DNA of 64,000 nucleotides. It comes from Escherichia coli phage vB_EcoS_Ace. This document shows, in pieces, positions 33,770 through 61,916 of the stretch (the first letter of the stretch is position 1; each line of letters begins with the position of its first letter). The notes below the pieces were generated by a model. That model was not told the origin of the DNA. It ran no database searches and saw nothing but the letters and a program-made list of their open reading frames with translations. Made by a program: the position numbers and the translations under genes. Where the stretch lies: the sequence record MT833283.1; one strand, written 5' to 3'.

Positions 33770-33775
33770 ATAATT

Positions 33776-34797: not shown

Positions 34798-34804
34798 TAA
34801 AATT

Positions 34805-35297: not shown

Positions 35298-35308
35298 TTT
35301 ATGTAATA

Positions 35309-35337
35309 ATTATACAGAACTTTAAGGATTTAAGCAA
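35309..35337 (-). promoter_or_regulatory. sigma70 promoter (TATAAT / TTGCTT)
   Basis: minus strand; 17-bp spacer. Confidence 0.6.
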
Positions 35338-35668
35338 CTACATTTTTCAGAAATTTGATGCCTTTCTTACACTTCTTATACCACCACGTCTTAGAGTTTT
35401 GTCGATTATGAACGCTTGAGATCTTCGCCTCATTAAAGTGCTTCAAAAGCATATAATCAGCCCCTAATTGCTCAAGTGGAATGTGATCTCCACTAGAATC
35501 ATAAACATAAGGCCGTTGATTAGCTCTGTAGTGATATACCTTATTAATCCGGCGTTTAAGCAAAGGACTAGTACAGTATATAAAGAAGTTTTTAGGATGC
35601 ATCAGCATCTCCTTCAAAATTGGTGCACCCCGTTGGTAACGATCCAACCTCTCAAGCTCTTCAGGCAA
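35330..35668 (-). CDS. hypothetical protein (112 aa)
   Basis: ORF in track. Confidence 0.45.
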   Translation of the reverse strand: MPEELERLDRYQRGAPILKEMLMHPKNFFIYCTSPLLKRRINKVYHYRANQRPYVYDSSGDHIPLEQLGADYMLLKHFNEAKISSVHNRQNSKTWWYKKCKKGIKFLKNVVA

Positions 35669-35786
35669 GCGCTAATCCATCTCAGCTAAAGGTGCAAATA
35701 TTGGCAAACCTACTAGGACTCGAACCTAGACCGTACGGTTTTGGAGACCGACATGCTGTCCAGTAACACTCTAGGAATGCAGAAAT

Positions 35787-35861
35787 TGGTATTCTCACAC
35801 GGATTCGAACCGAGATTTCTGGAGTGAAGTTCCAGTGACCTAACCATTAGTCGATGAGAAC
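35787..35861 (-). tRNA. tRNA-Glu (UUC)
   Basis: anticodon arm CTGGA-ACTTCAC-TCCAG; one T-stem mismatch. Confidence 0.5.
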
Positions 35862-36377
35862 ATTATATTCTTTTGCTTTCTCTAATTTTAGAAAAGACTT
35901 TAATTCTTCTAAGTTAATTATATTAAACCATTCACCTTCTAGTGCAAAAGGTTTAAGAAACTTATGTATTTTTGATTCTACCGCACGTCTATCGGAGTAG
36001 AATTGATAGTGCTCCAGAGTAAAATCTCTGTAAGGACTATATGTTTGATATGACCTCAGTCTTTCATGGACATTTACTGTCATACCTATTTTGTAACAAT
36101 TAGGCCATGCTTTATTGCCAATAACATATACCATACCTTCATACACAGGTAATTTATGCGCTTGTTTATACTGAATAAGATTTAAAGCAGAAATTCTATC
36201 ATACTGCATTATTCTTTTAGTATTCTTCTTTTCAGTACAAGTACCTTTTATCTCATTATAGATTTCTCGATATTTAGCAAGTAAATCTACATCAATAACA
36301 AAAGGTATAGTAGGAGAGATAATATCTCTTTCCTCCATAGCGCTAATTACTATTTTTGGTATATCTGGTATTGCCAT
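35847..36377 (-). CDS. T5orf172-domain protein (GIY-YIG-like), putative homing endonuclease
   Basis: EGMVYVIGN...YKIGMT...GEWF motifs; paralog of 32059..32700. Confidence 0.6.
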   Translation of the reverse strand: MAIPDIPKIVISAMEERDIISPTIPFVIDVDLLAKYREIYNEIKGTCTEKKNTKRIMQYDRISALNLIQYKQAHKLPVYEGMVYVIGNKAWPNCYKIGMTVNVHERLRSYQTYSPYRDFTLEHYQFYSDRRAVESKIHKFLKPFALEGEWFNIINLEELKSFLKLEKAKEYNVLID

Positions 36378-36398
36378 TTTTAGACCTTAGTTAAATTT

Positions 36399-36486
36399 GG
36401 TGGGCGTTAATGGAGTCGAACCACTCGAGTCGCAATGACCAGGGATTTACAATCCCCTCCGCTACCACTTACGGAATAAACGCCCA
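36399..36486 (-). tRNA. tRNA-Tyr (GUA), class II
   Basis: long variable arm; anticodon arm GGGGA-TTGTAAA-TCCCT; A73. Confidence 0.6.
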
Positions 36487-36616
36487 TATTTAGAAGTATT
36501 CAAAAAATTCTCATTTAAACACTTTTAAATATGTTTCCAAATTAGATAACTATTATATCAAGTTTTATGGCACTGAGCAAGTCAGATTTTAAAGAACTTG
36601 CTCAGTGCTGTATTAG

Positions 36617-36892
36617 TTAGTCGAACTTAGGAGTGACAGTTAAGGAGAACGGAAGTTCAAAAACTTCTTCACCCTCATCACTAACAGTGATTACCCGACC
36701 CTCTAACTTATTCATGCTAATCTCAACATCAGCCGTAGCATCTGGAGCCATGCCAGCTTCAACACATTTAGCTTTAATTTCCGGCAGAAGTTCTACATCA
36801 TAGAAATAAAGCCATTCAATCTCACCTTCCCAGCCTTCCCAGGATTTACAGATTGCACTTTCAATACCAGTTGTTATAACACGATTTTGCAT
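36617..36892 (-). CDS. hypothetical protein (91 aa)
   Basis: ORF in track; promoter cassette upstream. Confidence 0.5.
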   Translation of the reverse strand: MQNRVITTGIESAICKSWEGWEGEIEWLYFYDVELLPEIKAKCVEAGMAPDATADVEISMNKLEGRVITVSDEGEEVFELPFSLTVTPKFD

Positions 36893-36922
36893 TCGTTAAC
36901 TCCTTCATCAATTTATATAACT

Positions 36923-36952
36923 ATTATAACAGAAATCTTAAGTAAAAAGCAA
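36923..36952 (-). promoter_or_regulatory. sigma70 promoter (TATAAT / TTGCTT, 18-bp spacer)
   Basis: minus strand. Confidence 0.55.
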
Positions 36953-36982
36953 GTACATTTTTAAAATTTCTGCTTGGAGGAG

Positions 36983-37255
36983 TTAAACTCCTGATTCTTC
37001 AGCCAGATCAAGCCCAACCAACGTGATTGCCATAATAGCCGCGCCATGTTCCTTCTCTCCTAGCTCTTTAGCTTGAGTGAGAATATTGAGGAATTGCTTT
37101 TGAAAATCTGTAACTTCTTCTGTCATGCCTGCTTCAGCAATAATTCCTTTCAGCATAAAGCGTTGTGCCGTAATTTCAGGATTAGCCATTTGTTTTCTCC
37201 AGTTATTTAGAATGTAAGCCAAACTTAGGATCATAGCGATCATAAGTCGTACCAT
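36983..37255 (-). CDS. hypothetical protein (90 aa)
   Basis: ORF in track. Confidence 0.45.
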   Translation of the reverse strand: MVRLMIAMILSLAYILNNWRKQMANPEITAQRFMLKGIIAEAGMTEEVTDFQKQFLNILTQAKELGEKEHGAAIMAITLVGLDLAEESGV

Positions 37256-37341
37256 TAGTTGAAGCCTTGATGCTATGAAAACGACAGTACATAAATTTAC
37301 GTAGTGCTTTATTAATAGCTTTCATTTTATTTCCTTTTATT

Positions 37342-37418
37342 TGGTAGGGGTGGTGGGATTCGAACCCACAAAACCTGAATTTTAAGTCCAGTACCTATGC
37401 CAATTCGATTACACCCCC
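37342..37418 (-). tRNA. tRNA-Leu (UAA)-like with class I architecture
   Basis: anticodon arm CTGGA-CTTAAAA-TTCAG; A73; only 4-nt variable loop; D-arm atypical. Confidence 0.4.
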
Positions 37419-37426
37419 ATGTAATC

Positions 37427-37768
37427 TTAGCGAATCTCTAAACCCTGGAAATATCGAGGGAATGGAGAGCCAACTTCAAAATTAATACCCCAATTAAGTT
37501 CAACGAGTTCAGATTTATTAAGATCCAGACCATTACCTTCAAAGATATAGCCGTAAACCGCAGGGAACATAGCTGCTAGATCTTCCATATCGGAATGAGC
37601 ATTGTGTTCTTCACGAAACTGCTCAAACTCTTCAAAGAACTTTTCTAGGAAGAACTCTGGTACAATGAACGTTACTACATCTGTGGTATCATCAATACGA
37701 TAGATGGTAGCTTGGAATAGACCTACACCTAAAAGGTTGACTGCCGGAGTTGTAAAAATATCCATTTT
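37427..37768 (-). CDS. acidic hypothetical protein
   Basis: track ORF 37427..37876 trimmed to internal Met that overlaps the upstream stop. Confidence 0.4.
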   Translation of the reverse strand, partial: KMDIFTTPAVNLLGVGLFQATIYRIDDTTDVVTFIVPEFFLEKFFEEFEQFREEHNAHSDMEDLAAMFPAVYGYIFEGNGLDLNKSELVELNWGINFEVGSPFPRYFQGLEIR

Positions 37769-37952
37769 AGCCTCGCTCAATATCAAAAGAAATTGCATAA
37801 TTAGGGTTAATGCCAGAACCTTTACAGGTAGGACATTCCCATTCGTTATAGAAAATGTCCCCAGGTTCAGCATCATTTTGAGTGCCAGAACCCCAACATT
37901 CAGTACACATACATTCTTCTAGCTCTTGAGCAATTTCTCGAAAGCGTGACAT
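37767..37952 (-). CDS. zinc-ribbon protein (61 aa)
   Basis: CxxC...CxxC (CTEC, CPTC). Confidence 0.45.
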   Translation of the reverse strand: MSRFREIAQELEECMCTECWGSGTQNDAEPGDIFYNEWECPTCKGSGINPNYAISFDIERG

Positions 37953-37969
37953 ATAGTCTCCTAATTAAT

Positions 37970-38047
37970 TGGTGGCTCCCGGAGGATTCGAACCTACCTA
38001 CCTTTCGCTTATGAGGCGACGGCTCATACCAAATGAGCTTGAGAACC
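37970..38047 (-). tRNA. tRNA-Met or Ile-lysidine (CAU)
   Basis: anticodon loop CTCATAA; D-arm GCTCA...TGAGC. Confidence 0.55.
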
Positions 38048-38052
38048 AAATC

Positions 38053-38146
38053 TGGAGGAAGATGCCAGATTCGAACTGGCACACCGTGTTTCCACAGCTA
38101 CTGGCTGTTTAGCAAACAGCTCCCTTACCATTAGGGTTAATCTTCC
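38053..38146 (-). tRNA. tRNA-Ser (GCU), class II
   Basis: anticodon arm GCTGT-TTGCTAA-ACAGC; long variable arm; acceptor GGAAGAT/ATCTTCC. Confidence 0.65.
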
Positions 38147-38160
38147 GAATTTATGAATAT

Positions 38161-38189
38161 ATTATACAGAAAATTTCGACATTAAGCAA
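38161..38189 (-). promoter_or_regulatory. sigma70 promoter (TATAAT / TTGCTT) reading into tRNA cluster
   Basis: minus strand; 17-bp spacer; next downstream genes are tRNA-Ser(GCU) and tRNA-Met. Confidence 0.6.
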
Positions 38190-38197
38190 GTGAAATT

Positions 38198-38494
38198 TTA
38201 CTGAACCTTGCACTGATATACTTGTTTGATACGTGTCACTGACTTCTTAGTTGGATTGATAGAAGAACCCTGCCACCAACGTGATTCTGAGCTGAGAACA
38301 GTACCAGGAACAGCTTGTTCTTTTGGCAGAACAATATCAAAACACTGTTCACCCATATTATCTTTAATGTGCGACCAAATGTCTAGAGTAAATCGTTCTA
38401 GCTTATTACAAACTTGAACTTGACAAAGTTCCTGTTGTGGAGCAGCAAATACAGAAGTAGATACTAGAGTCAATGCAAGTACAATGCGTTTCAT
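38198..38494 (-). CDS. secreted protein
   Basis: track ORF trimmed to Met after SD; N-terminal signal peptide. Confidence 0.5.
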   Translation of the reverse strand: MKRIVLALTLVSTSVFAAPQQELCQVQVCNKLERFTLDIWSHIKDNMGEQCFDIVLPKEQAVPGTVLSSESRWWQGSSINPTKKSVTRIKQVYQCKVQ

Positions 38495-38524
38495 ATTTGA
38501 TTCCTCTCTCAAATTTATAAATAT

Positions 38525-38553
38525 ATTATACAGAAATTTTCTATATTAAGCAA
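38525..38553 (-). promoter_or_regulatory. sigma70 promoter (TATAAT / TTGCTT)
   Basis: minus strand; 17-bp spacer. Confidence 0.6.
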
Positions 38554-38571
38554 GTGAAAATTTCTGTATAA

Positions 38572-38591
38572 TAGCCCTCGCTTAGAGGGCT
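38572..38591 (-). terminator. GC hairpin, possible terminator after pnuC
   Basis: stem AGCCCTC/GAGGGCT immediately 3' of pnuC stop; U-tract weak. Confidence 0.35.
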
Positions 38592-38600
38592 ATAGCTACT

Positions 38601-39293
38601 TTATTTGTTAACGCGTACAAAGTATCCTTTATATGCCCCAAGAATAGAGTTACCTAAAAATACTAGCCACATTGCTAGGATTGCATAAGATGCACCTGTA
38701 GATTGAGCAGTTACAAGCCAAATGTATACAGTACCAATGTTAATAGCAATCCAGATCAGCCACTGCTCGGCATACTGCTTAACCATAAGCCACATAGCGA
38801 TCACACTACCTACCGCAGTAAATGCATCCAACATTGGGAATGGATCAGCCGTAGTAGTTAAGAAACTACCATACCCTAACGTGGCTACTGCTAGAATCCC
38901 TAGAGTCAGCAGAGCTTGGACTTTAGTCAGAATCTTAGTTGGAACATCTGGCAGATTACTTGGCTTATTTTTATGCCATAAGTACATTCCATAAAACTGC
39001 ATAGGAACGTAGTATAGCAGGTTTAGTGCAGCGTTACCATAAAGATCTTCGTTTAAAGCTGTAATACCATAGGTAAGAACACCAACTAAGCCCCAAATAT
39101 AGTTAGAAACACGTCCTTTAGCAACCAAAATAACACAAACTACGTTGGTTATCGCAGTAGCCCAATCTAGAGGTGTACCATTATAGTTAGCTAAACTAAT
39201 GAAGGCAACCGCTATGAACAGCCACAGATATTCCAGAGGTTTCCAGTTTTTAAAGTCATTTACGAGATAGTTAGTCATATTAAAACTCTCCAA
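38601..39293 (-). CDS. pnuC: nicotinamide riboside transporter (PnuC family)
   Basis: 230-aa multi-pass membrane protein with PnuC-like conserved blocks; immediately downstream of NadR-like gene. Confidence 0.6.
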   Translation of the reverse strand: MESFNMTNYLVNDFKNWKPLEYLWLFIAVAFISLANYNGTPLDWATAITNVVCVILVAKGRVSNYIWGLVGVLTYGITALNEDLYGNAALNLLYYVPMQFYGMYLWHKNKPSNLPDVPTKILTKVQALLTLGILAVATLGYGSFLTTTADPFPMLDAFTAVGSVIAMWLMVKQYAEQWLIWIAINIGTVYIWLVTAQSTGASYAILAMWLVFLGNSILGAYKGYFVRVNK

Positions 39294-39903
39294 CGTTAAA
39301 GTGATGAATCAGCCAGTCTACTGCGTTTACTGCTTCGTCCATACGAACTTTGTAGTCCGGGGAGTCGATGTACACAGTACGCCCTTCAGGGAACTGATTT
39401 GGAAATTCTTTCTTCATCTGCTCGAACAGTTCAGAAGTAATTGAACGATCGGAGTTAATACGTAAACCATCATCTACCCACTTGACAGTGGGCGCTAGAA
39501 CAATTACTAAATCGTAATGTTCTTCTTTTGCAATTGCTGTAACCACAGGGTTCTTACGATGTTCATAAAGTCTGTGGTAGAACTCAGTAATAAAAGCATT
39601 TGTATCCACAAACATGATCTTATTTGCAGTACGTTCTGCCTCAAACTCTAGCTCTTTGTGTCTGAACGCAATTTTACTATAATCTTCGCTGGTAAGCAGA
39701 TTTTCGTTACCAACTAGATCAACTTCACAATACGTTCGACCATATTCTTCTACCCACGAAGTGTTGTATAGCTTCGCAAGGTATTTTGTTAAAGTAGTCT
39801 TTCCTGAGCTTTCAGTCCCAATGATTACAACCCTACGCACGTAATCTTTACGAACTACGCTAGGAAGAAACTCCCAATACTTCATAAGATCATTACGAAT
39901 CAT
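39280..39903 (-). CDS. nadR: NadR-like protein, C-terminal ribosylnicotinamide kinase domain (part after in-frame TAG)
   Basis: Walker A GTESSGKTT; collinear with E. coli NadR C-terminal domain; same frame as 40117..40335 across a single TAG. Confidence 0.6.
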   Translation of the reverse strand: MIRNDLMKYWEFLPSVVRKDYVRRVVIIGTESSGKTTLTKYLAKLYNTSWVEEYGRTYCEVDLVGNENLLTSEDYSKIAFRHKELEFEAERTANKIMFVDTNAFITEFYHRLYEHRKNPVVTAIAKEEHYDLVIVLAPTVKWVDDGLRINSDRSITSELFEQMKKEFPNQFPEGRTVYIDSPDYKVRMDEAVNAVDWLIHHFNVGEF

Positions 39904-40116
39904 TGTAGCTGAGATTGGAACACGAGTCCGATCAGAATCTACAATATAATGACCAAACTTCGGCAGATATTTCTTATATTCTGCATCATAGTCTAGTTCG
40001 CTAGAGAAAATGGTGATCTCAGGTAAATGTCCGTAATTTTCATTAAGGATTCTAGCATATTCCGGCCAACCATTCGGATATTCAGGAATATCATCTTCAA
40101 TAATATACTCTACCTA

Positions 40117-40335
40117 AACGTGCTCAATATCCGCGTAAGTTTGTTCTAACCAACGAAGACGATTCTTTAACTGTAATACTTCCTGATCACGTGTGTTCTG
40201 CTTATCCAGCCAACGATTATCATGACTAACTACAATAATAACTCGTTCACACATAGTTGCTGCTGTATTTATTAGGTTAATATGGCCACGCGTTAAGGGT
40301 GCGAACTTACCAATTACTAGACCAGTCTTAATCAT
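40117..40335 (-). CDS. nadR: NadR-like protein, N-terminal NMN adenylyltransferase segment ending at in-frame TAG
   Basis: nucleotidyltransferase motif GKFAPLTRGHINLI; start set at Met after SD because the track ATG at 40386 lies inside the promoter. Confidence 0.55.
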
Positions 40336-40365
40336 GTTTGATTCCTCTCTCAAATTTATAAATAT

Positions 40366-40394
40366 ATTATACAGAGAATTTAGCATTCAAGCAA
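40366..40394 (-). promoter_or_regulatory. sigma70 promoter (TATAAT / TTGCTT) for nadR-like/pnuC
   Basis: minus strand; 17-bp spacer. Confidence 0.6.
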
Positions 40395-40598
40395 ACGAAT
40401 TTTTAAACTTTTTAGTGGAAAAATCTCAGGGCATTTAATGGTAGCACGTTGTTGCAGCAACAATAGTATGCGATTCTAAAGAATTAAATACTAAAGACCT
40501 TAGTTGAATAACTTATGGGCTTTTCTTTTGCCTTAAATACAGAAAAGCCCGCGCTCTCGGAGGGAACGCGGGCTTGGTTCGAAGATTACGTGTAACTA

Positions 40599-41543
40599 TT
40601 ACTTGTTACGCATATCCATGATCATTTGACCATCGTAGCCAGTACCAACAACAGTCTGCGGTACACCACCTTGGTATTTTTCAGCACGAAGCATTTCAAC
40701 TTCCAGCTGCTTCCAACGAATCATTTCAGGAGTAATGGTACGTTGCAGCGCGGCGTTAGCTTCAGCTTCTTTCTTAGCTGCGTACAGTTTAGCATCTGCG
40801 TCACGTTCGTTAGCTACTGCCATGTTTTCACGAGCAGAACGATCAGCTTCAGCTTGCTTAACTTTCTGCTGTGCTTCTTGTTCAACACGAGCCAATTCAG
40901 CTTTTGCAGCGTTAACTTGTTCTTCACGAACTTTAGTGTTCTGTACCTGTTCCATGATTACCGGTGGCAGAGTAATATCCTGAAGGAATACTTGCTTAAC
41001 CGTGTAACCATAAGGACGCGCGTACTCTTCTACCTCTTGCTGAATAGCAGTTTGCAGTTGAGCCTGAATCTTAGCGTCGAACAGATCTTGTGCTTTTGGT
41101 ACGGACTTACCAAACTCACGAATCGTAGACAGCATCTTCTCTTCAACGTACTTGTTCAGAGCTTGATCCTGAGTACCTGCGTTAACACGGTTCATAGGAG
41201 CTTTAGCACCATCAAACTGCAACATAACGGTAATGTCAACAGTAGACTTAAACTTATCCTGGCTAGGAACCTGAAGTTTATCCAGTTTCATGGAAATATC
41301 TTTCGTACTAAAAGTATCAAAAGAAGCAAATGGGTTAACAATATGGAAGCCTGGCAGTACAGGGTTCGGGCTAACTTTACCCAGGAAGGTCTGAGTCTTT
41401 ACAGTACCATCCTGAACAACTGTGTAGGAATTGAGAGCCAGAATAAGAGCACCAAGACCAACTACAGCACCAACACCCCAACGTTTAATAGTACGAATTA
41501 CTTTTTGCTCAGAAGTCAGTTCTTTAGTGTTTTTAGTAAACAT
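40599..41543 (-). CDS. SPFH/band-7 (prohibitin/HflK-like) membrane protein
   Basis: N-terminal TM, SPFH-like core, long Ala/Glu/Gln-rich coiled-coil C-terminus. Confidence 0.6.
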   Translation of the reverse strand: MFTKNTKELTSEQKVIRTIKRWGVGAVVGLGALILALNSYTVVQDGTVKTQTFLGKVSPNPVLPGFHIVNPFASFDTFSTKDISMKLDKLQVPSQDKFKSTVDITVMLQFDGAKAPMNRVNAGTQDQALNKYVEEKMLSTIREFGKSVPKAQDLFDAKIQAQLQTAIQQEVEEYARPYGYTVKQVFLQDITLPPVIMEQVQNTKVREEQVNAAKAELARVEQEAQQKVKQAEADRSARENMAVANERDADAKLYAAKKEAEANAALQRTITPEMIRWKQLEVEMLRAEKYQGGVPQTVVGTGYDGQMIMDMRNK

Positions 41544-41554
41544 ATATTTCCTTA

Positions 41555-41755
41555 TTATTTAGAAGAGTTAGCTACTACAGTTACTTTAGTTGCAGAAATA
41601 AACAGGCCAGCATCCACAGCAAATTCAGGAGCTTTGATATCTCCATTATGAAATATGACTATACCGGAGATTACCTCAAATGCTAGTGCTGTAACATCGG
41701 TGGTATTTACTTGTGAATGTTCACCTACTACTTTTACTATATATCGTGTTTTCAT
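41555..41755 (-). CDS. hypothetical protein (66 aa)
   Basis: ORF in track. Confidence 0.4.
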   Translation of the reverse strand: MKTRYIVKVVGEHSQVNTTDVTALAFEVISGIVIFHNGDIKAPEFAVDAGLFISATKVTVVANSSK

Positions 41756-41781
41756 TTTATTTTCCTAACAGTTAATAAAAT

Positions 41782-41856
41782 TGGCCGAGGTGACAGGATT
41801 TGAACCTGCATAAAGGAATTTAGAAGACTCCTGCCTATCCCTTAGACTACACCCCG
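41782..41856 (-). tRNA. tRNA-Arg (UCU)
   Basis: anticodon arm AGGAGT-CTTCTAA-ATTCCT; isolated from main cluster. Confidence 0.55.
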
Positions 41857-55740: not shown

Positions 55741-55983
55741 TTACCAGTCTAGTTTTTCGGCTTGATTAATTACTTTTGCTTTCGCATTCGCCCTCAGAAG
55801 AATATCTACTGATGTTGAAAGTTCATTATAATTAAAAGGCCGATTTGGATTAGAGGCTACAATTTTCCACGCTAGGGTAGTCTTAGGACTTTCTTCCCCT
55901 TCCTTACGTGTAATCATATTAGCAGCACTCAGTGAAGTACGGTGGATCTTAGTTTTGCGGTGCAGATGTACGACGTTTCCCAT
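55741..55983 (-). CDS. hypothetical protein (80 aa)
   Basis: ORF in track between phoH and nrdA. Confidence 0.4.
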   Translation of the reverse strand: MGNVVHLHRKTKIHRTSLSAANMITRKEGEESPKTTLAWKIVASNPNRPFNYNELSTSVDILLRANAKAKVINQAEKLDW

Positions 55984-56839: not shown

Positions 56840-57030
56840 CTACAATTTTAAATAAGCCTATGATATTGCATTTAAATAAAAAATTTGCTTGCTTTTATTG
56901 GGAAATGTATGGTACTAGATAATCATTTTATATCGCGTACACGGGTGCGTGATTATACTATTTTTAGTAGAGGTTGGCAAATAAAATTTTTTGACTCAGA
57001 TCAATTTACAGAATGTTATAGTAAAATATT

Positions 57031-57059
57031 GTTGACATCCGCCTTCGAATGAGTTATAA
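57031..57059 (+). promoter_or_regulatory. consensus sigma70 promoter (TTGACA-17-TATAAT) for nrdD
   Basis: plus strand; perfect hexamers with 17-bp spacer, 30 bp upstream of nrdD SD. Confidence 0.7.
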
Positions 57060-57089
57060 TAGTAGTCTTAGTTAGAGAAGGAGAGTATA

Positions 57090-58964
57090 ATGAATCGCAA
57101 TGAAGAACTAAAGTATAAAGGAATGCAGTCCTTGATTCGAAACTGCAAAGAAATTATCGAAGGTTCAGCAGATGAAGAGCTGCTGTTTAATAATGCCAAT
57201 AAGCCCTCAGAACGTTTCCCTACACAAAGGGATATGCTTGCAGGGGAATTGAGTAAATATCTGATTCTGGAAGAAATGCCAATCCAGATTCGAAATGCTC
57301 ACATGATTGGTGATATTCACTTCCATGATGCTGATTACGCTGCATTAGGTATGACTAACTGTTGCCTGGTTGCTTTGGAAGATATGTTGAAAAACGGTAT
57401 GAAGGTTGGTAATGCTGAAATCAGTACGCCAAACTCCATTACTACTGCGGCTGCTATTACAGCTCAGATTATTACTCAGGTTAGCTCCCATCAATATGGT
57501 GGTACTTCTGTAGACCGATTAGATGAAGTACTGGCTCCTTATGTTCGTAAGTCTTATGATAAGAATCATGCGTTTGCAAAACGTTGGACTAAGGATGAAG
57601 CCAAAGCATCTGTAATGGCTACGGAAATGACTGAGAAAGAAGTTTACGATGCCTGTCAGGGCCTGGAGTATGAAATCAATACGATGTTCAACTCTAATGG
57701 TCAAAGTCCGTTTATTACCTTTGGGTTTGGTCTAGGAACTTCTTGGGAAGCACGTCTTGTACAGAAAGCAATCCTAGAAGTGCGTATGGATGGTTTGGGT
57801 ATCAATAAACGTACAGCTATCTTCCCTAAACTGGTATTTGTTTTGCGTGATGGCGTAAACATGAAACCTGGTGATGTTAACTATGATATCAAGAAGTTAG
57901 CTATGAAATGTACTGCTGAACGTATGTATCCTGACTACATCAGTTATGATAAGGTTGTAGAAGTTACGGGAGACTACAAAGTCTCTATGGGCTGTCGTTC
58001 ATTCCTGGCTGCTGCGGAAGATGGTGAAACTTCTGGTCGTAACAACTTAGGCGTTGTTTCCGTAAACCTTCCTCGAATCGCTATCGAAGCGGAAGGAAAT
58101 ATTGATCTATTCTTCGATCTACTTGAGCTGCGTGTGGATACCGCGTTAAAAGCATTGGAGTGGAGGGTTGATCGCTTAAAATACATTCAAGCTAAAGCTG
58201 CGCCCATCCTCTATATGTCAGGAGCCTTTGGATTACGTCTGGGGCCAGATGAATATGTATTTGATCATTTCTACAAGCGTGCTTCCGTATCTCTAGGATA
58301 TATTGGTTGCCACGAAATGTTGCAGCTCATGTTTGGTAAAGATGTAGATACAATGTCTGAGTCTTGTATCAAGTTCGTTCAACGTGTGCTACAATATATG
58401 CGTGATCGTGCTGATCAGAAGAAGGAAGAGACTCAGTTAGGTTATAGTCTGTATGCTACACCATCTGAATCTCTGTGTGATCGCTTCTGTCGTCTAGACC
58501 GTGAGTACTTCCCAGAGCATGAGGATATTCTGGCTAAAGGATATTACACTAACTCCCATCACCTTGATGTAGAACGTAAGGTTGCTCCAAATGTGAAATT
58601 TGATTATGAGTCTAACTTTACTCCTATTGCTTCTGGTGGGTGCATTTCCTACGTGGAATTACCTGACATGAAGAAATTCCCAGATGCCCTAGAATGGGTA
58701 ATTAACTATGCTGCAAGTAAAGTTCACTACTTTGGTATTAATACTCCAGTTGATTCTTGTGGTGAGTGTGGATTCTTAGGCGAAACAATTGCTTCTGAAG
58801 ATGGATTTAAATGCCCAATTTGTGGCAACCATGATCCTGAGACTCTTGAGGTAACACGTCGTGTTTGTGGGTACCTTGGTAATCCAGGTGCACGCCCATT
58901 TAACCCAGGTAAACAGCATGAGGTTATGGGACGAATCAAGCATGCAGATGTAAGAGCTAAATAA
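57090..58964 (+). CDS. nrdD: anaerobic ribonucleoside-triphosphate reductase (NrdD)
   Basis: 624 aa; C-terminal Cys cluster and glycyl-radical motif RVCGYLG; consensus promoter and SD upstream. Confidence 0.8.
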   Translation: MNRNEELKYKGMQSLIRNCKEIIEGSADEELLFNNANKPSERFPTQRDMLAGELSKYLILEEMPIQIRNAHMIGDIHFHDADYAALGMTNCCLVALEDMLKNGMKVGNAEISTPNSITTAAAITAQIITQVSSHQYGGTSVDRLDEVLAPYVRKSYDKNHAFAKRWTKDEAKASVMATEMTEKEVYDACQGLEYEINTMFNSNGQSPFITFGFGLGTSWEARLVQKAILEVRMDGLGINKRTAIFPKLVFVLRDGVNMKPGDVNYDIKKLAMKCTAERMYPDYISYDKVVEVTGDYKVSMGCRSFLAAAEDGETSGRNNLGVVSVNLPRIAIEAEGNIDLFFDLLELRVDTALKALEWRVDRLKYIQAKAAPILYMSGAFGLRLGPDEYVFDHFYKRASVSLGYIGCHEMLQLMFGKDVDTMSESCIKFVQRVLQYMRDRADQKKEETQLGYSLYATPSESLCDRFCRLDREYFPEHEDILAKGYYTNSHHLDVERKVAPNVKFDYESNFTPIASGGCISYVELPDMKKFPDALEWVINYAASKVHYFGINTPVDSCGECGFLGETIASEDGFKCPICGNHDPETLEVTRRVCGYLGNPGARPFNPGKQHEVMGRIKHADVRAK

Positions 58965-59005: not shown

Positions 59006-59034
59006 TTGCTTTCTAGCTAAAACTTATGTATAAT
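59006..59034 (+). promoter_or_regulatory. sigma70 promoter (TTGCTT-17-TATAAT) with plus-strand copy of the early leader/SD cassette
   Basis: followed by TGATTTATAAATTTGAGAGGAG and ATG at 59064. Confidence 0.6.
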
Positions 59035-59063: not shown

Positions 59064-59282
59064 ATGGCAAAAGTACCACAAGAATTTACGGATGGAATTA
59101 AGGCAGATCTAGATGTAATGCTAATGGCCCAATGGGAGTCTGGCTTCCGAGATGGAATTGATTGTTGTGTGGCCGTGCTCGATACTATTAGTTGGCAGCT
59201 TATTCAATCTGGAAATGATGCAGAAGGCAACCTTCTAGCTAACCTTTCTAAACAAATTAGGGAAATGAAATGCGCAGATTAA
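59064..59282 (+). CDS. hypothetical protein (72 aa)
   Basis: ATG after GAGAGGAGAAAACGA leader of plus-strand promoter cassette; overlaps start of next gene. Confidence 0.45.
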   Translation: MAKVPQEFTDGIKADLDVMLMAQWESGFRDGIDCCVAVLDTISWQLIQSGNDAEGNLLANLSKQIREMKCAD

Positions 59283-60112
59283 TTATTGTTAGTGGTGCAG
59301 GTTTGAGTGTAGATAGTGGTGTTCGTGCTTTCCGTACTGATACTGCTAGTGGGAAATCCTTGTGGGATGAGTACGATCTAGAGGAAGTATGTAGCTTGCC
59401 TAACTTTGAAGCTGGCTTCCGTCGCTTCTGTGGTGAAGATGATCCTAACTACTTCAGTGCTCGTTTCCCTGGCATTGATGAAGATGGTAACGATCTGTAT
59501 CTCAAGACTCATGAGTTCTACAACATGCGTCGTCAGGAATTACAGACTGTTGAGCCTAACATTGCCCATCTGCGAATTGCAGAATGGTTCCAGCGTTATG
59601 ATGCGGATAGCGTGAAGAACTTCACTACTAACGTTGATGACCTTCTGGAACGTGCTGGTATCCCTCGTGATGAAATCATTCACGCTCACGGGTACTTGAA
59701 AGAGGTGATCTATCGTCAGGGTCGCAATCAAATCATCGAAGATGTTGGGTATACTGCGATTGCCCCTGAAGATTACGAATGGGTAAAACCAAACGTAACA
59801 TTCTTTGGTGAGACGGCTCCGTGGTATATGGGTCAGATTAACCTGTTTGATACGCTTACTAGCAATGATATGGTTATTGTGGTAGGTTGTAGCAACCAAG
59901 TGATTGACTTCAACTGGGAACTATTCCCTGCTGTATGTCGTGGAACTAAGATGATGGTTGTTAACCCTCAAGTTCGCTATGATGAACAGCTTGAATATGA
60001 GAAACGTGGTGTTACTGTATGGCGGGCTGGAGCTGCCGAAGTTTTTGGTAACAAGCATTTCATTGGTCAAGTAGAAGCCTTTATGGAAGGAACTATTTAT
60101 GTCGCATCCTAA
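59270..60112 (+). CDS. Sir2-family (sirtuin-like) protein
   Basis: GAGLSVDSGVRAFR, TTNVDDLLERAG, HAHG, VTFFGE, VVGCS blocks; no Zn-ribbon Cys pairs seen. Confidence 0.6.
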   Translation: MRRLIIVSGAGLSVDSGVRAFRTDTASGKSLWDEYDLEEVCSLPNFEAGFRRFCGEDDPNYFSARFPGIDEDGNDLYLKTHEFYNMRRQELQTVEPNIAHLRIAEWFQRYDADSVKNFTTNVDDLLERAGIPRDEIIHAHGYLKEVIYRQGRNQIIEDVGYTAIAPEDYEWVKPNVTFFGETAPWYMGQINLFDTLTSNDMVIVVGCSNQVIDFNWELFPAVCRGTKMMVVNPQVRYDEQLEYEKRGVTVWRAGAAEVFGNKHFIGQVEAFMEGTIYVAS

Positions 60113-60314
60113 TAAGGGTAAAATGGGAGATATGGGATCAGACCCCCGATTTTACAAATCGCCTAAAAGACACCCTGATGATATAATTGTATGGCCAGAT
60201 AAAACATGGTGCTATCGTGAAGAGTTGTGGGAAATGGATTATATGTCAGATGATTTCTGTGTAATCTATATCGACACACCGGAACATAAAGCGTTCCTAG
60301 AGGAGAACGAATGA
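60099..60314 (+). CDS. hypothetical protein (71 aa)
   Basis: ORF in track. Confidence 0.4.
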   Translation: MSHPNKGKMGDMGSDPRFYKSPKRHPDDIIVWPDKTWCYREELWEMDYMSDDFCVIYIDTPEHKAFLEENE

Positions 60315-60496
60315 TAAAGAAGATTTTTAAGGGTATCTGGAAAGGTCTAGTATGGTTTGTCAACCTAATCGGTATGATTACCATTTATTCTCTGTTCCTA
60401 TCTGTTATGTGGGGTAAAGGTGAATTGAAGGTTCCGGTTCCTTTTACTGAGGAAGTTAAAGTCTGGACGTGGGATGCTACTGGTGGAAATAAGTAA
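60311..60496 (+). CDS. small membrane protein (61 aa)
   Basis: ORF in track; hydrophobic. Confidence 0.4.
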   Translation: MIKKIFKGIWKGLVWFVNLIGMITIYSLFLSVMWGKGELKVPVPFTEEVKVWTWDATGGNK

Positions 60497-60989
60497 TACT
60501 CCTGTGATTTTCCTGGATATTGATGGGGTGCTCAATTCGAGCATCTCTCACCATCATGCTCCAGACAGTGAAAAGCTGTTCTTTGGCAGTGATTGGGTTT
60601 ATAAGCCATTACTCCAGGCTTTTCAGAACTTTCTTAAACCCTCCCCAATAATGATTGTTGGGGTCTCTTCATGGTTTTCTGTACGAAATGAAATGGAGAA
60701 CGTTCAGATTATGACCGGACTCGGTTTGATCGATCGTTTCCTTGGTACAACAGATTTTACTGGAGGTGGTTTATCTCGGGGTAATTCTGTTTTACGTTTC
60801 GTCGAAAAATATAAGCTCAAGCATTGGTGTGTCCTAGATGATGCTGGTGCTATGATGTACCAATTCCCTACTGTTATTGTAAATGGCAGGACTGGAATAA
60901 ACCTTCAAGATTTAAATGCTATCAGCTATATGCTGGAGTTTAGTCCAGATCTTGAAATGTGTAAGGCTCTTCAGAAACTTAAGGTGTAA
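60474..60989 (+). CDS. HAD-superfamily phosphatase-like protein
   Basis: HAD motif I FLDIDGVLN; start codon uncertain. Confidence 0.5.
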   Translation: MLLVEISNTPVIFLDIDGVLNSSISHHHAPDSEKLFFGSDWVYKPLLQAFQNFLKPSPIMIVGVSSWFSVRNEMENVQIMTGLGLIDRFLGTTDFTGGGLSRGNSVLRFVEKYKLKHWCVLDDAGAMMYQFPTVIVNGRTGINLQDLNAISYMLEFSPDLEMCKALQKLKV

Positions 60990-60991
60990 AT

Positions 60992-61420
60992 ATGTTCGAT
61001 AATCTTTTCATGAAAGAGGTAAACCCTATGCTCCTCAACTTCTGGCGTTCTCTCCCTAATGGTATGTATAATGAAACCATCAATCTGCTTAAGATTTGGT
61101 GTGAGAATAACGATATCTTCCTATCCTTTAAAGGCCCACTAGAGGAAGCTCCATGTATTGGAGTTAGCGTGGATTTAGGTGAGGGAGTAGAAGAAATTGT
61201 AGACTGGAAAGAACTCGATGAAATGGGTCTGGTTTTTGCCTTGAACCATAAGCTGTTTATGCCTGCAAATCACCGTCTTATTGTAAACTATCGCACTGGT
61301 GAAGCTCCTGCTTTCCAGGTAAATGAACGTGAGGGCTGGTCATATTCGCCCAAAGAAGTAAATGAGGGGATTCAGAAACTTCGTCGTTTCGGGTATATGA
61401 TCCCAGGTTTAACTGCTTAA
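60992..61420 (+). CDS. hypothetical protein (142 aa), paralog of 61430..61825
   Basis: shared C-terminal block (W.EL..MGL..ALN...F.P......TGE.P...V......Y......E....L.R.G...PGL). Confidence 0.55.
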   Translation: MFDNLFMKEVNPMLLNFWRSLPNGMYNETINLLKIWCENNDIFLSFKGPLEEAPCIGVSVDLGEGVEEIVDWKELDEMGLVFALNHKLFMPANHRLIVNYRTGEAPAFQVNEREGWSYSPKEVNEGIQKLRRFGYMIPGLTA

Positions 61421-61429
61421 GGAGGCAGA

Positions 61430-61825
61430 ATGGAACAAGTATTTTGGCGTCAGATAGATCCTAGTTTGGTAGAGCGTGCTGAAGGGCTCCTTGCACGTTG
61501 GTTGGGGGTTGACAAGGTTAGTGTAACATTTCCGTTTACTTCTGTAACAGACCCTAGTGTAGGTGTCTTTGTGGACGAAGATGAAGATGATGGTTGGGAA
61601 GCTGACTGGAATGAATTGTCCAGTATGGGCTTGATTGTTGCCCTCAACTTCTCTATATTCCATCCACGTGGCTTAGCCATTACACGTGACCCCGAAACTG
61701 GTGAATCCCCTTATCTTTTGCAAGTAGAAGATGATATTTGGGAGTACACCGAAGATATTCTCGAAGAAGCTAAAGGTCAATTAAATCGCATTGGGATCTA
61801 TGTTCCAGGCCTAAATGATGATTGA
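61430..61825 (+). CDS. hypothetical protein (131 aa), paralog of 60992..61420
   Basis: tandem duplicate; GGAGG SD upstream. Confidence 0.55.
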   Translation: MEQVFWRQIDPSLVERAEGLLARWLGVDKVSVTFPFTSVTDPSVGVFVDEDEDDGWEADWNELSSMGLIVALNFSIFHPRGLAITRDPETGESPYLLQVEDDIWEYTEDILEEAKGQLNRIGIYVPGLNDD

Positions 61826-61916
61826 TTTTCATTAGTCCAATCCTGATTACCGAGTCATTTTGGCTCGGTTTTCTCTGTGCTCAAAGACACTGATAGCACC
61901 TTCGGAAAAATTTTAC

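What the first reader, a model, noticed from the sequence alone, without database searches (positions are those of the whole stretch)
59270..60112. Sir2-like (sirtuin-family) protein encoded in the nrdD operon
A 280-aa ORF carries the core Sir2 blocks (GAGxSxxSGxxxFR, TxNxDxLxxRAG, HG, FFGE, GxS) but no Zn-ribbon cysteines. Sir2 domains act as NAD+-dependent deacylases, ADP-ribosyltransferases or NADases. A phage-encoded copy next to ribonucleotide reductase genes, in a genome that also encodes NAD salvage, suggests host-protein modification or control of NAD+ flux.
Basis: partly seen in the sequence, partly recalled or inferred. Interest (0 to 1): 0.55.

Follow-up and report, generated by a model that had tools for sequence, protein, structure and literature searches.

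The report
Known zinc-less sirtuin in T5-like phage
The ORF is a genuine, probably active sirtuin (an NAD+-consuming enzyme) that T5-like and several other large phages are already known to carry, and what it acts on during infection has never been tested.

Summary
It passes Pfam SIR2 (78 bits against a cut-off of 24). A confident AlphaFold model (pLDDT 88.5) is closest to class-III sirtuins: E. coli CobB, Sir2Af1 and SIRT5.

The window is a T5-like phage (Epseptimavirus). The gene is the counterpart of T5.102, 'putative Sir2-like protein', and homologs occur in 977 phage records. Its lack of zinc was discussed in 2016. Its pairing with a 'Swiss-army-knife' HAD phosphatase was described in 2022, with a predicted KptA-like RNA-repair role. 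So it is already known, but it has not been characterised experimentally.

'In the nrdD operon' is not accurate. A strong terminator hairpin and a TATAAT promoter separate nrdD from a sirtuin-HAD-DUF7415 unit. NAD salvage (NadR-like and PnuC-like genes, 'NARP3') is present 20 kb upstream.

The acceptor substrate is unresolved. I marginally favour an autonomous class-III lysine deacylase (0.4), because the acyl and anion pocket is conserved, the protein is acidic and the phage has no RNA ligase. The KptA-like phosphate-acceptor model (0.3) is backed by recurring phosphoesterase and RNA-ligase neighbours in other phages. DT57C shows that the gene is dispensable.

The parts
57032..57060 (+). Consensus sigma-70 promoter (TTGACA-17-TATAAT, 12/12) in front of nrdD. 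It marks the start of the upstream transcription unit.
57090..58964 (+). nrdD, the anaerobic ribonucleoside-triphosphate reductase. It is an upstream neighbour and not part of the sirtuin unit.
   Evidence: NF006732, 840 bits
58971..58995 (+). Intrinsic-terminator-like hairpin (10-bp stem, 6 GC pairs) followed by UUUUAUUUU. It separates nrdD from the sirtuin block.
   Evidence: dG -16.9 kcal/mol, z -5.0; T5 annotates a terminator at the same place
59006..59034 (+). Promoter-like site with a weak -35 (TTGCTT), a 17-nt spacer and a perfect -10 (TATAAT).
   Evidence: Read directly from the sequence. The scanner missed it because the -35 matches only 3 of 6 positions. T5 annotates a promoter here.
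59064..59282 (+). Small ORF (72 aa from ATG 59064, with AGGAG 7 nt upstream). One search listed it from TTG 59034. PHROG 5827, function unknown. It overlaps the sirtuin start by 13 nt.
   Evidence: (the PHROG alignment starts at residue 11)
59270..60112 (+). Sirtuin (280 aa) of class-III type without zinc ligands. Catalytic H140; NAD-binding residues G9-S13, F21/R22, N121/D123; pocket residues C41, Y84, R87, V122, V176, F179; variable insert 47-76.
60099..60314 (+). 71-aa ORF, PHROG 5116, function unknown. It overlaps the sirtuin stop.
60311..60496 (+). 61-aa ORF, PHROG 11166, with a hydrophobic stretch (about residues 13-33). Function unknown.
60474..60989 (+). Cap-less HAD phosphatase of family HAD_SAK_2 (PF18143). 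Catalytic DxDGV 15-19 and DD 122-123 are invariant. Many records mis-annotate it as a second 'Sir2'.
60992..61420 (+). DUF7415 protein a (142 aa).
61430..61825 (+). DUF7415 protein b (131 aa), a 31%-identical tandem paralogue of a.
61849..61869 (+). Terminator-like hairpin that closes the sirtuin-HAD-DUF7415 unit.
   Evidence: T5 annotates a terminator at the same place
38604..40335 (-). Context only: PnuC-like transporter (38604..39278) and NadR-like NMNAT/kinase (39283..40335). This is the NAD+ reconstitution pair that a 2026 paper characterised as NARP3 in a sister phage.

Best explanation
The gene encodes a catalytically intact sirtuin that has lost its zinc site. It belongs to a phage-specific offshoot of the class-III (CobB/SIRT5) sirtuins. 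It is transcribed from its own promoter as an accessory gene, together with a HAD phosphatase. What is shown: the sirtuin fold, all NAD+-binding and catalytic residues, and a conserved class-III pocket. What is inferred: the enzyme binds NAD+, expels nicotinamide and transfers ADP-ribose onto an oxygen nucleophile of a substrate held by Tyr84 and Arg87, after which His140 promotes the second step. The acceptor I think most likely is an acyl-lysine carrying a short, probably acidic acyl group (succinyl or malonyl type, possibly acetyl). In that case the enzyme works on its own as an NAD+-dependent protein deacylase. It would strip host-imposed or non-enzymatic lysine acylation from host or phage proteins during infection. 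The phage's NAD+-rebuilding genes would then offset the NAD+ it consumes.
For: Family and fold: Pfam SIR2 scores 78 bits against a cut-off of 24. The AlphaFold model has pLDDT 88.5. The best solved-structure matches are all class-III deacylases: CobB (TM 0.83), Sir2Af1 and SIRT5.

Catalytic set: G9, A10, G11, S13, F21, R22, N121, D123, H140, G141, F179 and E181 are invariant in 56 clade members.

Pocket: I counted along the CobB alignment and anchored it on the residue numbers in the PDB titles. The CobB acyl-pocket residues map as A76 to C41, Y92 to Y84, R95 to R87, I131 to V122, V187 to V176, F190 to F179 and H147 to H140. All of these are invariant or nearly invariant in the clade. Y and R are kept in 127 and 99 of the 136 nearest 50%-identity clusters. 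The Y-x-x-R pair is the known determinant of succinyl/malonyl-lysine recognition in SIRT5 and CobB (established knowledge).

Autonomy: the sirtuin is kept without HAD in L012, L013, L021 and L071. It lies about 30 kb from the RNA-repair cluster in Phapecoctavirus and has no informative neighbours in KVP40-like phages. This window's 64 kb has no RNA ligase, cREC or polynucleotide kinase that a repair role would need.

Charge: all 67 clade members are acidic (pI 4.6-6.1; this one 4.71, net charge -17). E. coli KptA has pI 9.4.

Background: phage proteins are heavily lysine-acetylated in infected cells.
Against: No biochemical or genetic data exist for any member of this clade.

The deacylase model does not explain the neighbourhood pattern. 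The sirtuin is translationally coupled to an RNA ligase and cREC in Vequintavirinae. It is followed by a Nudix-cREC fusion in Eneladusvirus, flanked by RlaP and NADAR in L079, and accompanied by HAD_SAK_2 in 31 of 34 T5-like loci and again in a marine contig.

The Pro of the peptide-clamping V-x-P motif is lost (V211-I212-D213). The Gln of TQNID is Thr, and the zinc module is gone. NCBIfam CobB equivalog cut-offs are missed by a wide margin (70 bits against 320).

The host already has CobB. No acyltransferase or known sirtuin target is ever linked to the gene.
Confidence: 0.4

Rival explanations
1. KptA/Tpt1-like phosphate acceptor, the model of Iyer et al. 2022. The sirtuin transfers ADP-ribose from NAD+ onto a phosphate monoester, typically a 2'-phosphate left on cleaved RNA. 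His140 then drives release of ADP-ribose 1''-2'' cyclic phosphate and leaves a clean 2'-OH. Partner phosphoesterases (cREC, HAD_SAK_2, calcineurin-like) either prepare the RNA end or convert the ADP-ribose phosphate product to ADP-ribose. NARP-type enzymes plus the released nicotinamide can then rebuild ADP-ribose into NAD+.
For: I reproduced all three published neighbourhood types. The first is Rnl(T4)-cREC-[kinase]-SIR2 with overlapping genes, plus Metallophos, MazG, NADAR and a Prs/NAMPT-like pair, in 13 loci. The second is SIR2 followed by a Nudt16-like Nudix-cREC fusion, beside NMNAT/NAMPT. The third is SIR2 with HAD_SAK_2 in 31 of 34 T5-like loci.

L079 has RlaP-SIR2-NADAR. Phapecoctavirus genomes carry both the sirtuin and a complete repair cluster.

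HAD_SAK_2 overlaps a Prs-like plus NAMPT-like pair in phage ChuuTotoro. That is the position where a Macro-domain ADPR-1''-phosphate phosphatase (Poa1p-like, the enzyme downstream of Tpt1 in yeast) was shown to work.

The class-III pocket is an anion-binding pocket, and the two-step sirtuin chemistry parallels that of Tpt1 (established knowledge). DT57C lost the sirtuin and HAD in a single deletion.
Against: No sirtuin has ever been shown to act on a nucleic acid, and the model is a prediction only. This phage's window encodes no RNA ligase, cREC or polynucleotide kinase. Ends stripped of phosphate could not be sealed by the host's RtcB (established knowledge), so the pathway is incomplete in T5-likes.

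The sirtuin persists without HAD in four T5-like lineages. The protein is strongly acidic and has no clade-specific basic residues. The hydrophobic lysine-channel residues are conserved. The Phapecoctavirus repair cluster is intact without an embedded sirtuin.

No KptA gene was found replacing the sirtuin in 53 cREC-anchored loci, so there is no displacement evidence. The HAD's structural neighbours are too weak to name a substrate.
Confidence: 0.3
2. Another ADP-ribosyl transfer or counter-defence activity. The sirtuin would ADP-ribosylate a specific host protein, a nucleic-acid base or end, or a small molecule, or would process an NAD-derived immune signal, as part of the phage's NAD/ADP-ribose arms race with the host.
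For: The sirtuin allele is swapped within a conserved slot. It is 52% identical to T5's, while PhoH, NrdD and HAD are 98%, 89% and 91% identical. That pattern is typical of conflict genes. Neighbours in other phages include NADAR (an ADP-ribose-removing family), Nudix, MazG and NAD+ reconstitution genes. The clade has invariant aromatic residues F214, W216 and F219 next to the substrate groove, and these are not conserved in related sirtuins. The gene is dispensable in the laboratory.
Against: No specific target can be named. The known ADP-ribosylating sirtuins are paired with a Macro domain, and none is adjacent here. Retention of the catalytic His and of the full class-III pocket fits a two-step removal reaction better than simple transfer.
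Confidence: 0.15
3. An NAD+ glycohydrolase, or an NAD+-flux regulator, that simply consumes or senses NAD+.
For: NAD+ synthesis genes lie in the same genome and close to the sirtuin in 14 of the 67 fetched sirtuin-containing sequences (66 loci plus the window). The KVP40 homolog was originally annotated as having an NAD+ hydrolysis role.
Against: The protein matches PF02146, not the defence-type SIR2 family, and has no PADLOC hit. The substrate pocket residues are under strong constraint. Depleting NAD+ would harm a phage that carries an NAD-dependent DNA ligase and invests in rebuilding NAD+. The sirtuin is far more widespread than this NadR-type gene.
Confidence: 0.07

Closest known systems
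Phage T5 gene T5.102, 'putative Sir2-like protein' (AY543070), and its orthologues in T5-like phages such as SP15 and the BASEL phages GreteKellenberger and TrudiRoth
   Same: It occupies the same slot, nrdD - small ORFs - Sir2 - small ORFs - HAD (T5.105) - DUF7415 x2 (T5.106/107), with a terminator and promoter after nrdD. It is 99.6% identical to the GreteKellenberger protein, which is annotated 'Sir2-like protein'.
   Different: It is only 52% identical to T5's own allele although the flanking genes are 89-98% identical. This allele carries a 30-residue insert (47-76) that T5's lacks, and it lacks T5's C-terminal insert.
Phage sirtuin clade linked to RNA repair (Iyer, Burroughs, Anantharaman and Aravind 2022, Viruses 14:1977, section 3.7.3), type 3, 'Escherichia phage SP15'
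   Same: The SP15 homolog was recovered (52% identity, H61). The sirtuin and 'Swiss-army-knife' HAD pairing is present here. The other two published neighbourhood types were reproduced.
   Different: Nothing structural differs. The published KptA-like function is a prediction.
E. coli CobB (PDB 1s5p, 6rxj) and class-III sirtuins SIRT5 and Sir2Af1
   Same: Same fold (Foldseek E=1e-15, TM 0.83 on the target), the same catalytic His, Asn and Asp, the FGE loop and the Y-x-x-R anion-recognition pair, and a small residue at the A76 position.
   Different: About 26% identity. There are no zinc cysteines, Thr replaces Gln in TQNID, the V-Y-P peptide clamp reads V-I-D/N, and there is an extra insert at 47-76. 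It scores far below the NCBIfam CobB cut-offs, so it is not a CobB orthologue.
Sir2/CobB of KVP40-like Vibrio phages (Skliros et al. 2016, Front Microbiol 7:1807)
   Same: A phage-encoded, zinc-less sirtuin in a genome with NAD+ salvage. That paper lists T5 as a carrier.
   Different: About 33% identity. The -V-I-[ND]- motif here reads I-N-P there, and there are no HAD or RNR neighbours. That paper proposed activation of acetyl-CoA synthetase, which is also untested.
KptA/Tpt1 RNA 2'-phosphotransferase
   Same: It uses NAD+ in a two-step ADP-ribosyl transfer and release. It sits in comparable phage RNA-repair contexts. It is a possible functional analogue.
   Different: The fold is unrelated (ART fold against Rossmann sirtuin) and there is no sequence match. 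KptA is basic (pI 9.4) while this protein is acidic (pI 4.7).
Defence-associated SIR2 NADases (ThsA, DSR1/2, SIR2-HerA; Pfam PF13289)
   Same: They belong to the same superfamily and cleave NAD+.
   Different: There is no PADLOC hit and no PF13289 hit. This protein is phage-encoded, has a complete substrate pocket and is not fused to a sensor domain.

Membership tests
Sir2/sirtuin family (Pfam PF02146) | The profile match exceeds the curated gathering score | tested here: met
   78.1 bits against a cut-off of 24, E=1.1e-21; PHROG 2162 E=5e-107
Sir2/sirtuin family (Pfam PF02146) | Rossmann-type sirtuin fold with a small domain | tested here: met
   AlphaFold pLDDT 88.5, pTM 0.86. All top Foldseek hits are sirtuins, with CobB at E=1e-15 and TM 0.83 on the target.
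Sir2/sirtuin family (Pfam PF02146) | NAD+-binding GAGxS, the cofactor-loop Phe-Arg, Asn and Asp of the TQNID block, the catalytic His-Gly, and FGE | tested here: met
   G9-A10-G11-S13, F21-R22, N121, D123, H140-G141 and F179-G180-E181 are present; all except G180 are invariant in 56 homologs
Sir2/sirtuin family (Pfam PF02146) | Gln of the TQNID motif | tested here: not met
   The residue is Thr120, invariant in the clade. T is found in 39 and Q in 83 of the 136 nearest clusters.
Sir2/sirtuin family (Pfam PF02146) | Cys4 zinc-binding module in the small domain | tested here: not met
   There are no Cys residues in 141-172 and no CxxC anywhere. The module is absent throughout the clade, is zinc-less in 40 of the 136 nearest clusters, and is retained in the more distant phage relatives L064 and L065. 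The beta-hairpins of the module are still predicted.
Sir2/sirtuin family (Pfam PF02146) | NAD+-dependent catalysis | not testable with these tools
   This needs an enzyme assay. No published assay was found for this clade.
Class-III sirtuins (CobB/SIRT5 type) | A Tyr-x-x-Arg pair that recognises acidic acyl groups, and a small residue at the CobB A76 / SIRT5 A86 position | tested here: met
   Y84, R87 and C41 are invariant in the clade.
CobB orthologue (NCBIfam equivalogs NF040867, NF001755 and others) | The score reaches the curated equivalog cut-off | tested here: not met
   70 bits against 320, 70 against 318, and 88 against 243 for the subfamily model
Phage sirtuin clade with RNA-repair neighbourhoods (Iyer et al. 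2022), type 3 | Homology to the SP15-type phage sirtuin and a nearby stand-alone HAD_SAK phosphatase | tested here: met
   SP15 hit at 52% identity over 100% of the length. HAD_SAK_2 at E=7e-18 lies 362 nt downstream in the same unit. The pairing holds in 31 of 34 T5-like loci.
Phage sirtuin clade with RNA-repair neighbourhoods (Iyer et al. 2022), type 3 | The predicted activity on RNA 2'-phosphate | not testable with these tools
   This is a prediction only. Indirect tests here were mixed.
Defence-type SIR2 NADases (PF13289; ThsA, DSR, SIR2-HerA) | A match to the defence SIR2 models | tested here: not met
   No PADLOC family at E<=0.01. The only Pfam hit is PF02146.
KptA/Tpt1 RNA 2'-phosphotransferase | Homology to the ART-fold 2'-phosphotransferase family | tested here: not met
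   There is no such Pfam or PDB hit. phmmer with E. coli KptA found no relative in 53 cREC-anchored loci. Only a 'works like' relation is conceivable.
nrdD operon | Co-transcription with nrdD, with no terminator or promoter in between | tested here: not met
   Hairpin and U-run at 58971-59004 (z -5.0), then TTGCTT-17-TATAAT at 59006-59034. T5 is annotated the same way. Read-through cannot be excluded without RNA data.

The most novel reading that the evidence does not exclude
The sirtuin fold is used here as an analogue of KptA/Tpt1. It would transfer ADP-ribose onto a phosphate monoester (an RNA 2'-phosphate end) and release ADP-ribose cyclic phosphate. The partner phosphoesterases (HAD_SAK_2, and cREC in other phages) would convert that product to ADP-ribose. 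Phage NAD+-reconstitution enzymes would then recombine ADP-ribose with the released nicotinamide, closing an NAD+ loop. This would be the first sirtuin with a nucleic-acid substrate. The idea was published as a prediction in 2022, so only its confirmation would be new.
Probability: 0.3. Interest if true: 0.7.

Novelty: already known. Interest (0 to 1): 0.3.

Why it matters
As a sequence feature this is ordinary. The gene is annotated in the deposited T5 record (AY543070), has its own PHROG family, and its zinc-less state and HAD neighbour are in the literature. Its value is as an unsolved enzyme that is easy to test. It is carried by about 2% of sequenced phage records (977 of 50,697), across several unrelated families. 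It sits within the NAD+/ADP-ribose arms race that has recently proved central to phage-host conflict, yet nobody has assayed it. If it removes RNA phosphates, it would extend sirtuin chemistry to nucleic acids. If it is a deacylase, it would show that phages edit the acyl-lysine state of proteins during infection.

Tried and rejected
1. Defence-type SIR2 or NADase: PADLOC gave no hit and only PF02146 matched. Rejected.

2. The unknown proteins upstream of the Phapecoctavirus sirtuin (g209, g210), and this window's small ORFs and DUF7415 proteins, as cryptic HAD, cREC, kinase or metallophosphoesterase proteins: all hhalign probabilities were below 2%; Pfam gave nothing for g209 and g210, and PHROGs gave only unknown-function families.

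3. Non-orthologous displacement test, asking whether KptA replaces the sirtuin in cREC clusters: no KptA relative turned up in 53 cREC-anchored viral loci. Most distant loci matched none of my probes, so the test is uninformative rather than negative.

4. Rosetta-stone test for Sir2-HAD fusions: none among 30 HAD homolog clusters, all of which are stand-alone proteins of about 170 aa.

5. HAD substrate from structure: there is no PDB sequence relative. The model is excellent (pLDDT 94.8), but Foldseek gave only weak matches (no E<=1e-3) to cap-less HADs such as MDP-1, the PNKP phosphatase domains and Scp1. This is compatible with a macromolecular substrate but not diagnostic.

6. The L073 gene that overlaps the sirtuin first looked NadR-like. 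Pfam shows a nucleotidyltransferase fused to a CoaE-type kinase, so I withdrew that reading.

7. Eight literature searches for any assay or phenotype of a phage sirtuin found none.

8. My CobB residue mapping could not be reconciled for 'V162' (an off-by-one discrepancy against the PDB titles), so I do not use that position.
Full report
1. WHAT IS THERE

ORF 59270..60112 (+) is real and encodes 280 aa. A Shine-Dalgarno sequence (AGGGA) precedes its ATG, and the start overlaps the preceding small ORF by 13 nt.

The first pattern occurs only once in the six-frame translation of the window. The four cysteines are at 41, 54, 207 and 223. None lies in 141-172, where E. coli CobB has its zinc ligands.

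The protein passes Pfam SIR2 (78.1 bits against a cut-off of 24), matches PHROG 2162 'Sir2' end to end (E=5e-107) and finds CobB as the best solved relative (E=4e-16). An AlphaFold model built on 56 homologs is confident (pLDDT 88.5, pTM 0.86). Its best Foldseek matches are all class-III sirtuins: CobB (E=1e-15, TM 0.83 on the target), Sir2Af1 and SIRT5.

2. WHERE IT COMES FROM, AND THAT IT IS KNOWN

The 5-kb neighbourhood is 96-98% identical to many Salmonella and Escherichia T5-like phages (Demerecviridae, Epseptimavirus), with 551 records matching. The protein is 99.6% identical to 'Sir2-like protein' bas26_0052 of phage GreteKellenberger.

T5 itself has the gene in the same slot as T5.102, 'putative Sir2-like protein'. 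Homologs occur in 977 of 50,697 phage records. They span Demerecviridae, Vequintavirinae, Phapecoctavirus and Justusliebigvirus, KVP40-like Schizotequatrovirus and jumbo phages.

Skliros et al. 2016 already discussed zinc-less phage Sir2/CobB and listed T5 as a carrier. Iyer et al. [quoted passage not shown] They described three neighbourhood types and named T5-like phage SP15 for the type in which the sirtuin is joined by a 'Swiss-army-knife' HAD phosphatase. They predicted a KptA-like removal of RNA 2'-phosphates. SP15's homolog is in my hit list.

The genome's NAD salvage pair, NadR-like at 39283..40335 and PnuC-like at 38604..39278, was shown experimentally in 2026, in sister phage TrudiRoth, to be the counter-defence pathway NARP3. 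Eight literature searches found no assay or phenotype for any phage sirtuin of this clade.

3. TRANSCRIPTION UNIT

nrdD has a perfect consensus promoter at 57032-57060. Its stop codon (58962-58964) is followed by a 10-bp GC-rich hairpin at 58971-58995 with a U-run (dG -16.9 kcal/mol, z -5.0, no shuffle as stable). Next come TTGCTT, a 17-nt spacer and TATAAT (59006-59034), then AGGAG and ATG 59064. That ATG is the true start of the small upstream ORF, because its PHROG alignment begins at residue 11 of the mechanically called ORF.

From there the genes overlap or abut: a 72-aa ORF, the sirtuin, a 71-aa ORF, a 61-aa hydrophobic ORF, the HAD and two DUF7415 proteins. The unit ends at a second terminator at 61849-61869. 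T5 is annotated with a terminator and a promoter at the same junction. So the sirtuin lies downstream of nrdD but heads its own unit. 'nrdD operon' is not supported, although read-through cannot be excluded.

4. ANATOMY OF THE ENZYME

In 56 clade members the NAD-binding and catalytic residues G9, A10, G11, S13, F21, R22, N121, D123, H140, G141, F179 and E181 are invariant. So are Y84, R87 and R88 (the class-III Y-x-x-R) and C41.

I counted along the CobB alignment and checked the count against the residue numbers in the PDB titles. The CobB acyl-pocket residues A76, Y92, R95, I131, H147, V187 and F190 correspond to C41, Y84, R87, V122, H140, V176 and F179.

The differences from canonical sirtuins are these:
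- There is no zinc site.
- Thr replaces Gln in TQNID.
- V-I-D/N replaces the V-x-P peptide clamp.
- F214, W216 and F219 are invariant in the clade but variable in related sirtuins.
- The insert at 47-76 is dispensable and is missing in the T5 allele.

More distant jumbo-phage relatives keep CxxC...CxxC and TQNID, so zinc loss is a derived state. Among the 136 nearest 50%-identity clusters, 40 are zinc-less and 39 have Thr at the Gln position. NCBIfam CobB equivalog cut-offs are missed by a wide margin. There is no PADLOC hit. All 67 clade members I collected are acidic, with pI 4.6-6.1; this one has pI 4.71 and net charge -17.

5. NEIGHBOURHOODS

I collected 59 viral loci from IMG/VR. Together with seven loci fetched from annotated phage records and the window itself, that gave 67 sirtuin-containing sequences to score. 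The results were as follows.

- T5-like loci. In 34 loci the order nrdD - sirtuin - DUF7415 is constant. HAD_SAK_2 is present in 31 and absent in L012, L013 and L021, where the sirtuin is intact. It is also absent in the divergent T5-like locus L071.
- Vequintavirus and Mydovirus. In 13 loci the sirtuin is embedded in an RNA heal-and-seal cluster. This comprises a T4-type RNA ligase, cREC ('cyclic-phosphate processing' domain), a P-loop kinase and a calcineurin-like phosphoesterase. It also has MazG, an ATP-dependent DNA ligase, often NADAR, and a Prs-like plus NAMPT-like pair. The Prs-like plus NAMPT-like pair is the Pfam annotation pattern of NARP1.
- Eneladusvirus jumbo phages. The order is NMNAT, NAMPT, the sirtuin, then a Nudt16-like Nudix-cREC fusion and PhoH.
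- Phapecoctavirus-type loci (12). Only unknown proteins are adjacent, and they are unrelated to HAD, cREC, kinase or phosphoesterase families. These genomes do carry an intact Prs-NAMPT-cREC-phosphoesterase-ligase-kinase-MazG cluster, but about 30 kb away and without a sirtuin in it.
- New, more distant zinc-less relatives. Marine contig L073 has a 43%-identical sirtuin overlapping a nucleotidyltransferase-CoaE-kinase fusion. Further along it has a HAD_SAK_2 only 23% identical to this one, and then a calcineurin-like phosphoesterase. L079 has RlaP ('RNA repair pathway' nucleotidyltransferase), the sirtuin and NADAR in a row. L068 has antirepressor-like genes and a DNA ligase. KVP40-like phages show nothing informative.
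- The HAD family on its own. There are no Sir2-HAD fusions. In Serratia phage ChuuTotoro the HAD overlaps a Prs-like gene followed by a NAMPT-family gene, with no sirtuin within 6 kb. In characterised extended NARP1 operons, that position is taken by a Macro-domain ADPR-1''-phosphate phosphatase homologous to yeast Poa1p, the enzyme downstream of Tpt1.
- The HAD in this window. It has intact catalytic motifs and an excellent model (pLDDT 94.8). It has only weak structural neighbours among cap-less HADs.
- DT57C, a viable T5-like phage. It carries a 273-bp 'defective' sir2 remnant joined directly to the DUF7415 genes. One deletion removed the sirtuin, the two small ORFs and the HAD, so the module is dispensable.
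- This window. It has 29 tRNA genes but no RNA ligase, cREC or polynucleotide kinase.
- Mosaicism. Against T5, PhoH is 98% identical, NrdD 89%, HAD 91% and the DUF7415 proteins about 70%, but the sirtuin only 52%. A divergent allele, closer to those of Phapecoctavirus (60%), has been swapped into a fixed slot.

6. WEIGHING THE MECHANISMS

The following is shown: a sirtuin fold, a complete NAD+ and catalytic apparatus, a conserved class-III anion and acyl pocket, strong purifying selection on these residues across phage families, and accessory status. Everything about the acceptor is inferred.

The deacylase reading rests on the protein itself. Its nearest relatives are all deacylases and the whole acyl-lysine channel is conserved. 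It is acidic, and it persists alone in at least four lineages. This phage also lacks the ligase and kinase that a repair pathway needs. After dephosphorylation the ends would be unusable by the host ligase RtcB (established knowledge). Phage proteins are known to be heavily acetylated in infected cells.

The KptA-like reading rests on context. In at least five independent lineages the sirtuin is next to phosphoesterases and RNA-end enzymes. HAD_SAK_2 is tied both to the sirtuin and to ADP-ribose-to-NAD+ recycling. That makes a coherent loop: sirtuin to ADP-ribose phosphate, then cREC or HAD to ADP-ribose, then NARP enzymes to NAD+.

Against the KptA-like reading, no sirtuin is known to act on nucleic acids, the protein is acidic (KptA has pI 9.4), there are exceptions to the linkage, and displacement evidence is absent.

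I put the deacylase at 0.40, the KptA-like phosphate acceptor at 0.30, another ADP-ribosyl-transfer or counter-defence role at 0.15, and NADase or flux control at 0.07. The remainder covers inactivity or something not considered.

7. VERDICT

However, the gene, its zinc-less state, its HAD partner and a specific functional hypothesis are all already in the literature and in the annotation of hundreds of genomes.

It also adds exceptions to the published RNA-repair linkage, new linkages (RlaP and NADAR; HAD with a NARP1-type pair) and the allele-swap pattern. Interest is modest (0.3). It would rise sharply if the RNA-phosphate activity were demonstrated.

Noticed in passing
window 60474..60989: The HAD_SAK_2 phosphatase also matches PHROG 18062, which is labelled 'Sir2 (NAD-dependent deacetylase)', over residues 80-171 (E=8e-54). 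That is why many phage records list two 'Sir2' genes here. It has no sirtuin domain, so this looks like a propagated mis-annotation.
   Followed up: partly
window 59270..60112 compared with L004 (T5): The block is mosaic. The sirtuin is 52% identical to T5's, while the flanking PhoH, NrdD and HAD are 98%, 89% and 91% identical. The window's allele is closer to those of about 150-kb Phapecoctavirus myophages (60%). This suggests a cassette-like allele swap between phage families at a fixed slot.
   Followed up: partly
L067 (Escherichia phage DT57C) 3468-3740: A natural deletion leaves a 273-bp 'defective' sir2 remnant fused to the DUF7415 genes. The sirtuin, two small ORFs and the HAD were lost together in a viable phage.
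   Followed up: yes
L137 (Serratia phage ChuuTotoro) 6001-9217: HAD_SAK_2 overlaps a Prs-like gene followed by a NAPRTase/NAMPT-family gene (a NARP1-type pair). This might be a HAD-based analogue of the Macro-domain ADPR-1''-phosphate phosphatase of the 'NARP1-AP' pathway. It is untested.
   Followed up: partly
L073 1249-2418 (marine TARA/Logan contig): A 389-aa fusion of a cytidylyltransferase-like nucleotidyltransferase and a CoaE-type kinase overlaps the stop of a zinc-less sirtuin. HAD_SAK_2 and a calcineurin-like phosphoesterase lie in the same cluster. The substrate of the fusion is unknown.
   Followed up: partly
L079 4917-7181: RlaP (an RNA-repair-pathway Pol-beta nucleotidyltransferase), a zinc-less sirtuin and a NADAR protein lie in a row on a 71-kb T4-like contig. 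This neighbourhood is not among the three published types.
   Followed up: no
window 55741..55983 (-): An 80-aa DUF7430 protein between phoH and nrdA matches PHROG 5357, which is labelled 'tail length tape measure protein'. That label is implausible for an 80-residue early-region protein and is probably another propagated mis-annotation. Similarly, the sirtuin of Klebsiella phage vB_Kpn_3 is named 'tail assembly protein'.
   Followed up: no
window 28010..41856 (-): There are 29 tRNA genes on the minus strand, covering most amino acids. The NadR-like and PnuC-like NARP3 genes are embedded at 38604..40335.
   Followed up: no
window 56952..57060: Near-perfect sigma-70 promoters face away from each other: TTGACA-17-TATAAT (12/12) for nrdD, and TTGCCA-17-TATAAT (11/12) on the minus strand for phoH.
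   Followed up: no
window 60992..61825: Two tandem DUF7415 genes are 31% identical to each other. They are present in all 34 T5-like loci and are retained even where the sirtuin and HAD are deleted, so they act independently of the sirtuin.
   Followed up: partly
L138/L139 6001-11251: On a 175-kb contig a HAD_SAK_2 gene sits beside fructose-bisphosphate aldolase, a PfkB kinase and fructose-type PTS components, with an RNA ligase 4 kb upstream. This is an odd sugar-metabolism context for this HAD family.
   Followed up: no
window 16240..16830 (-): An ORF matches my calcineurin-like phosphoesterase profile (E=3e-8). It is the only other phosphoesterase of the surveyed families in the window.
   Followed up: no
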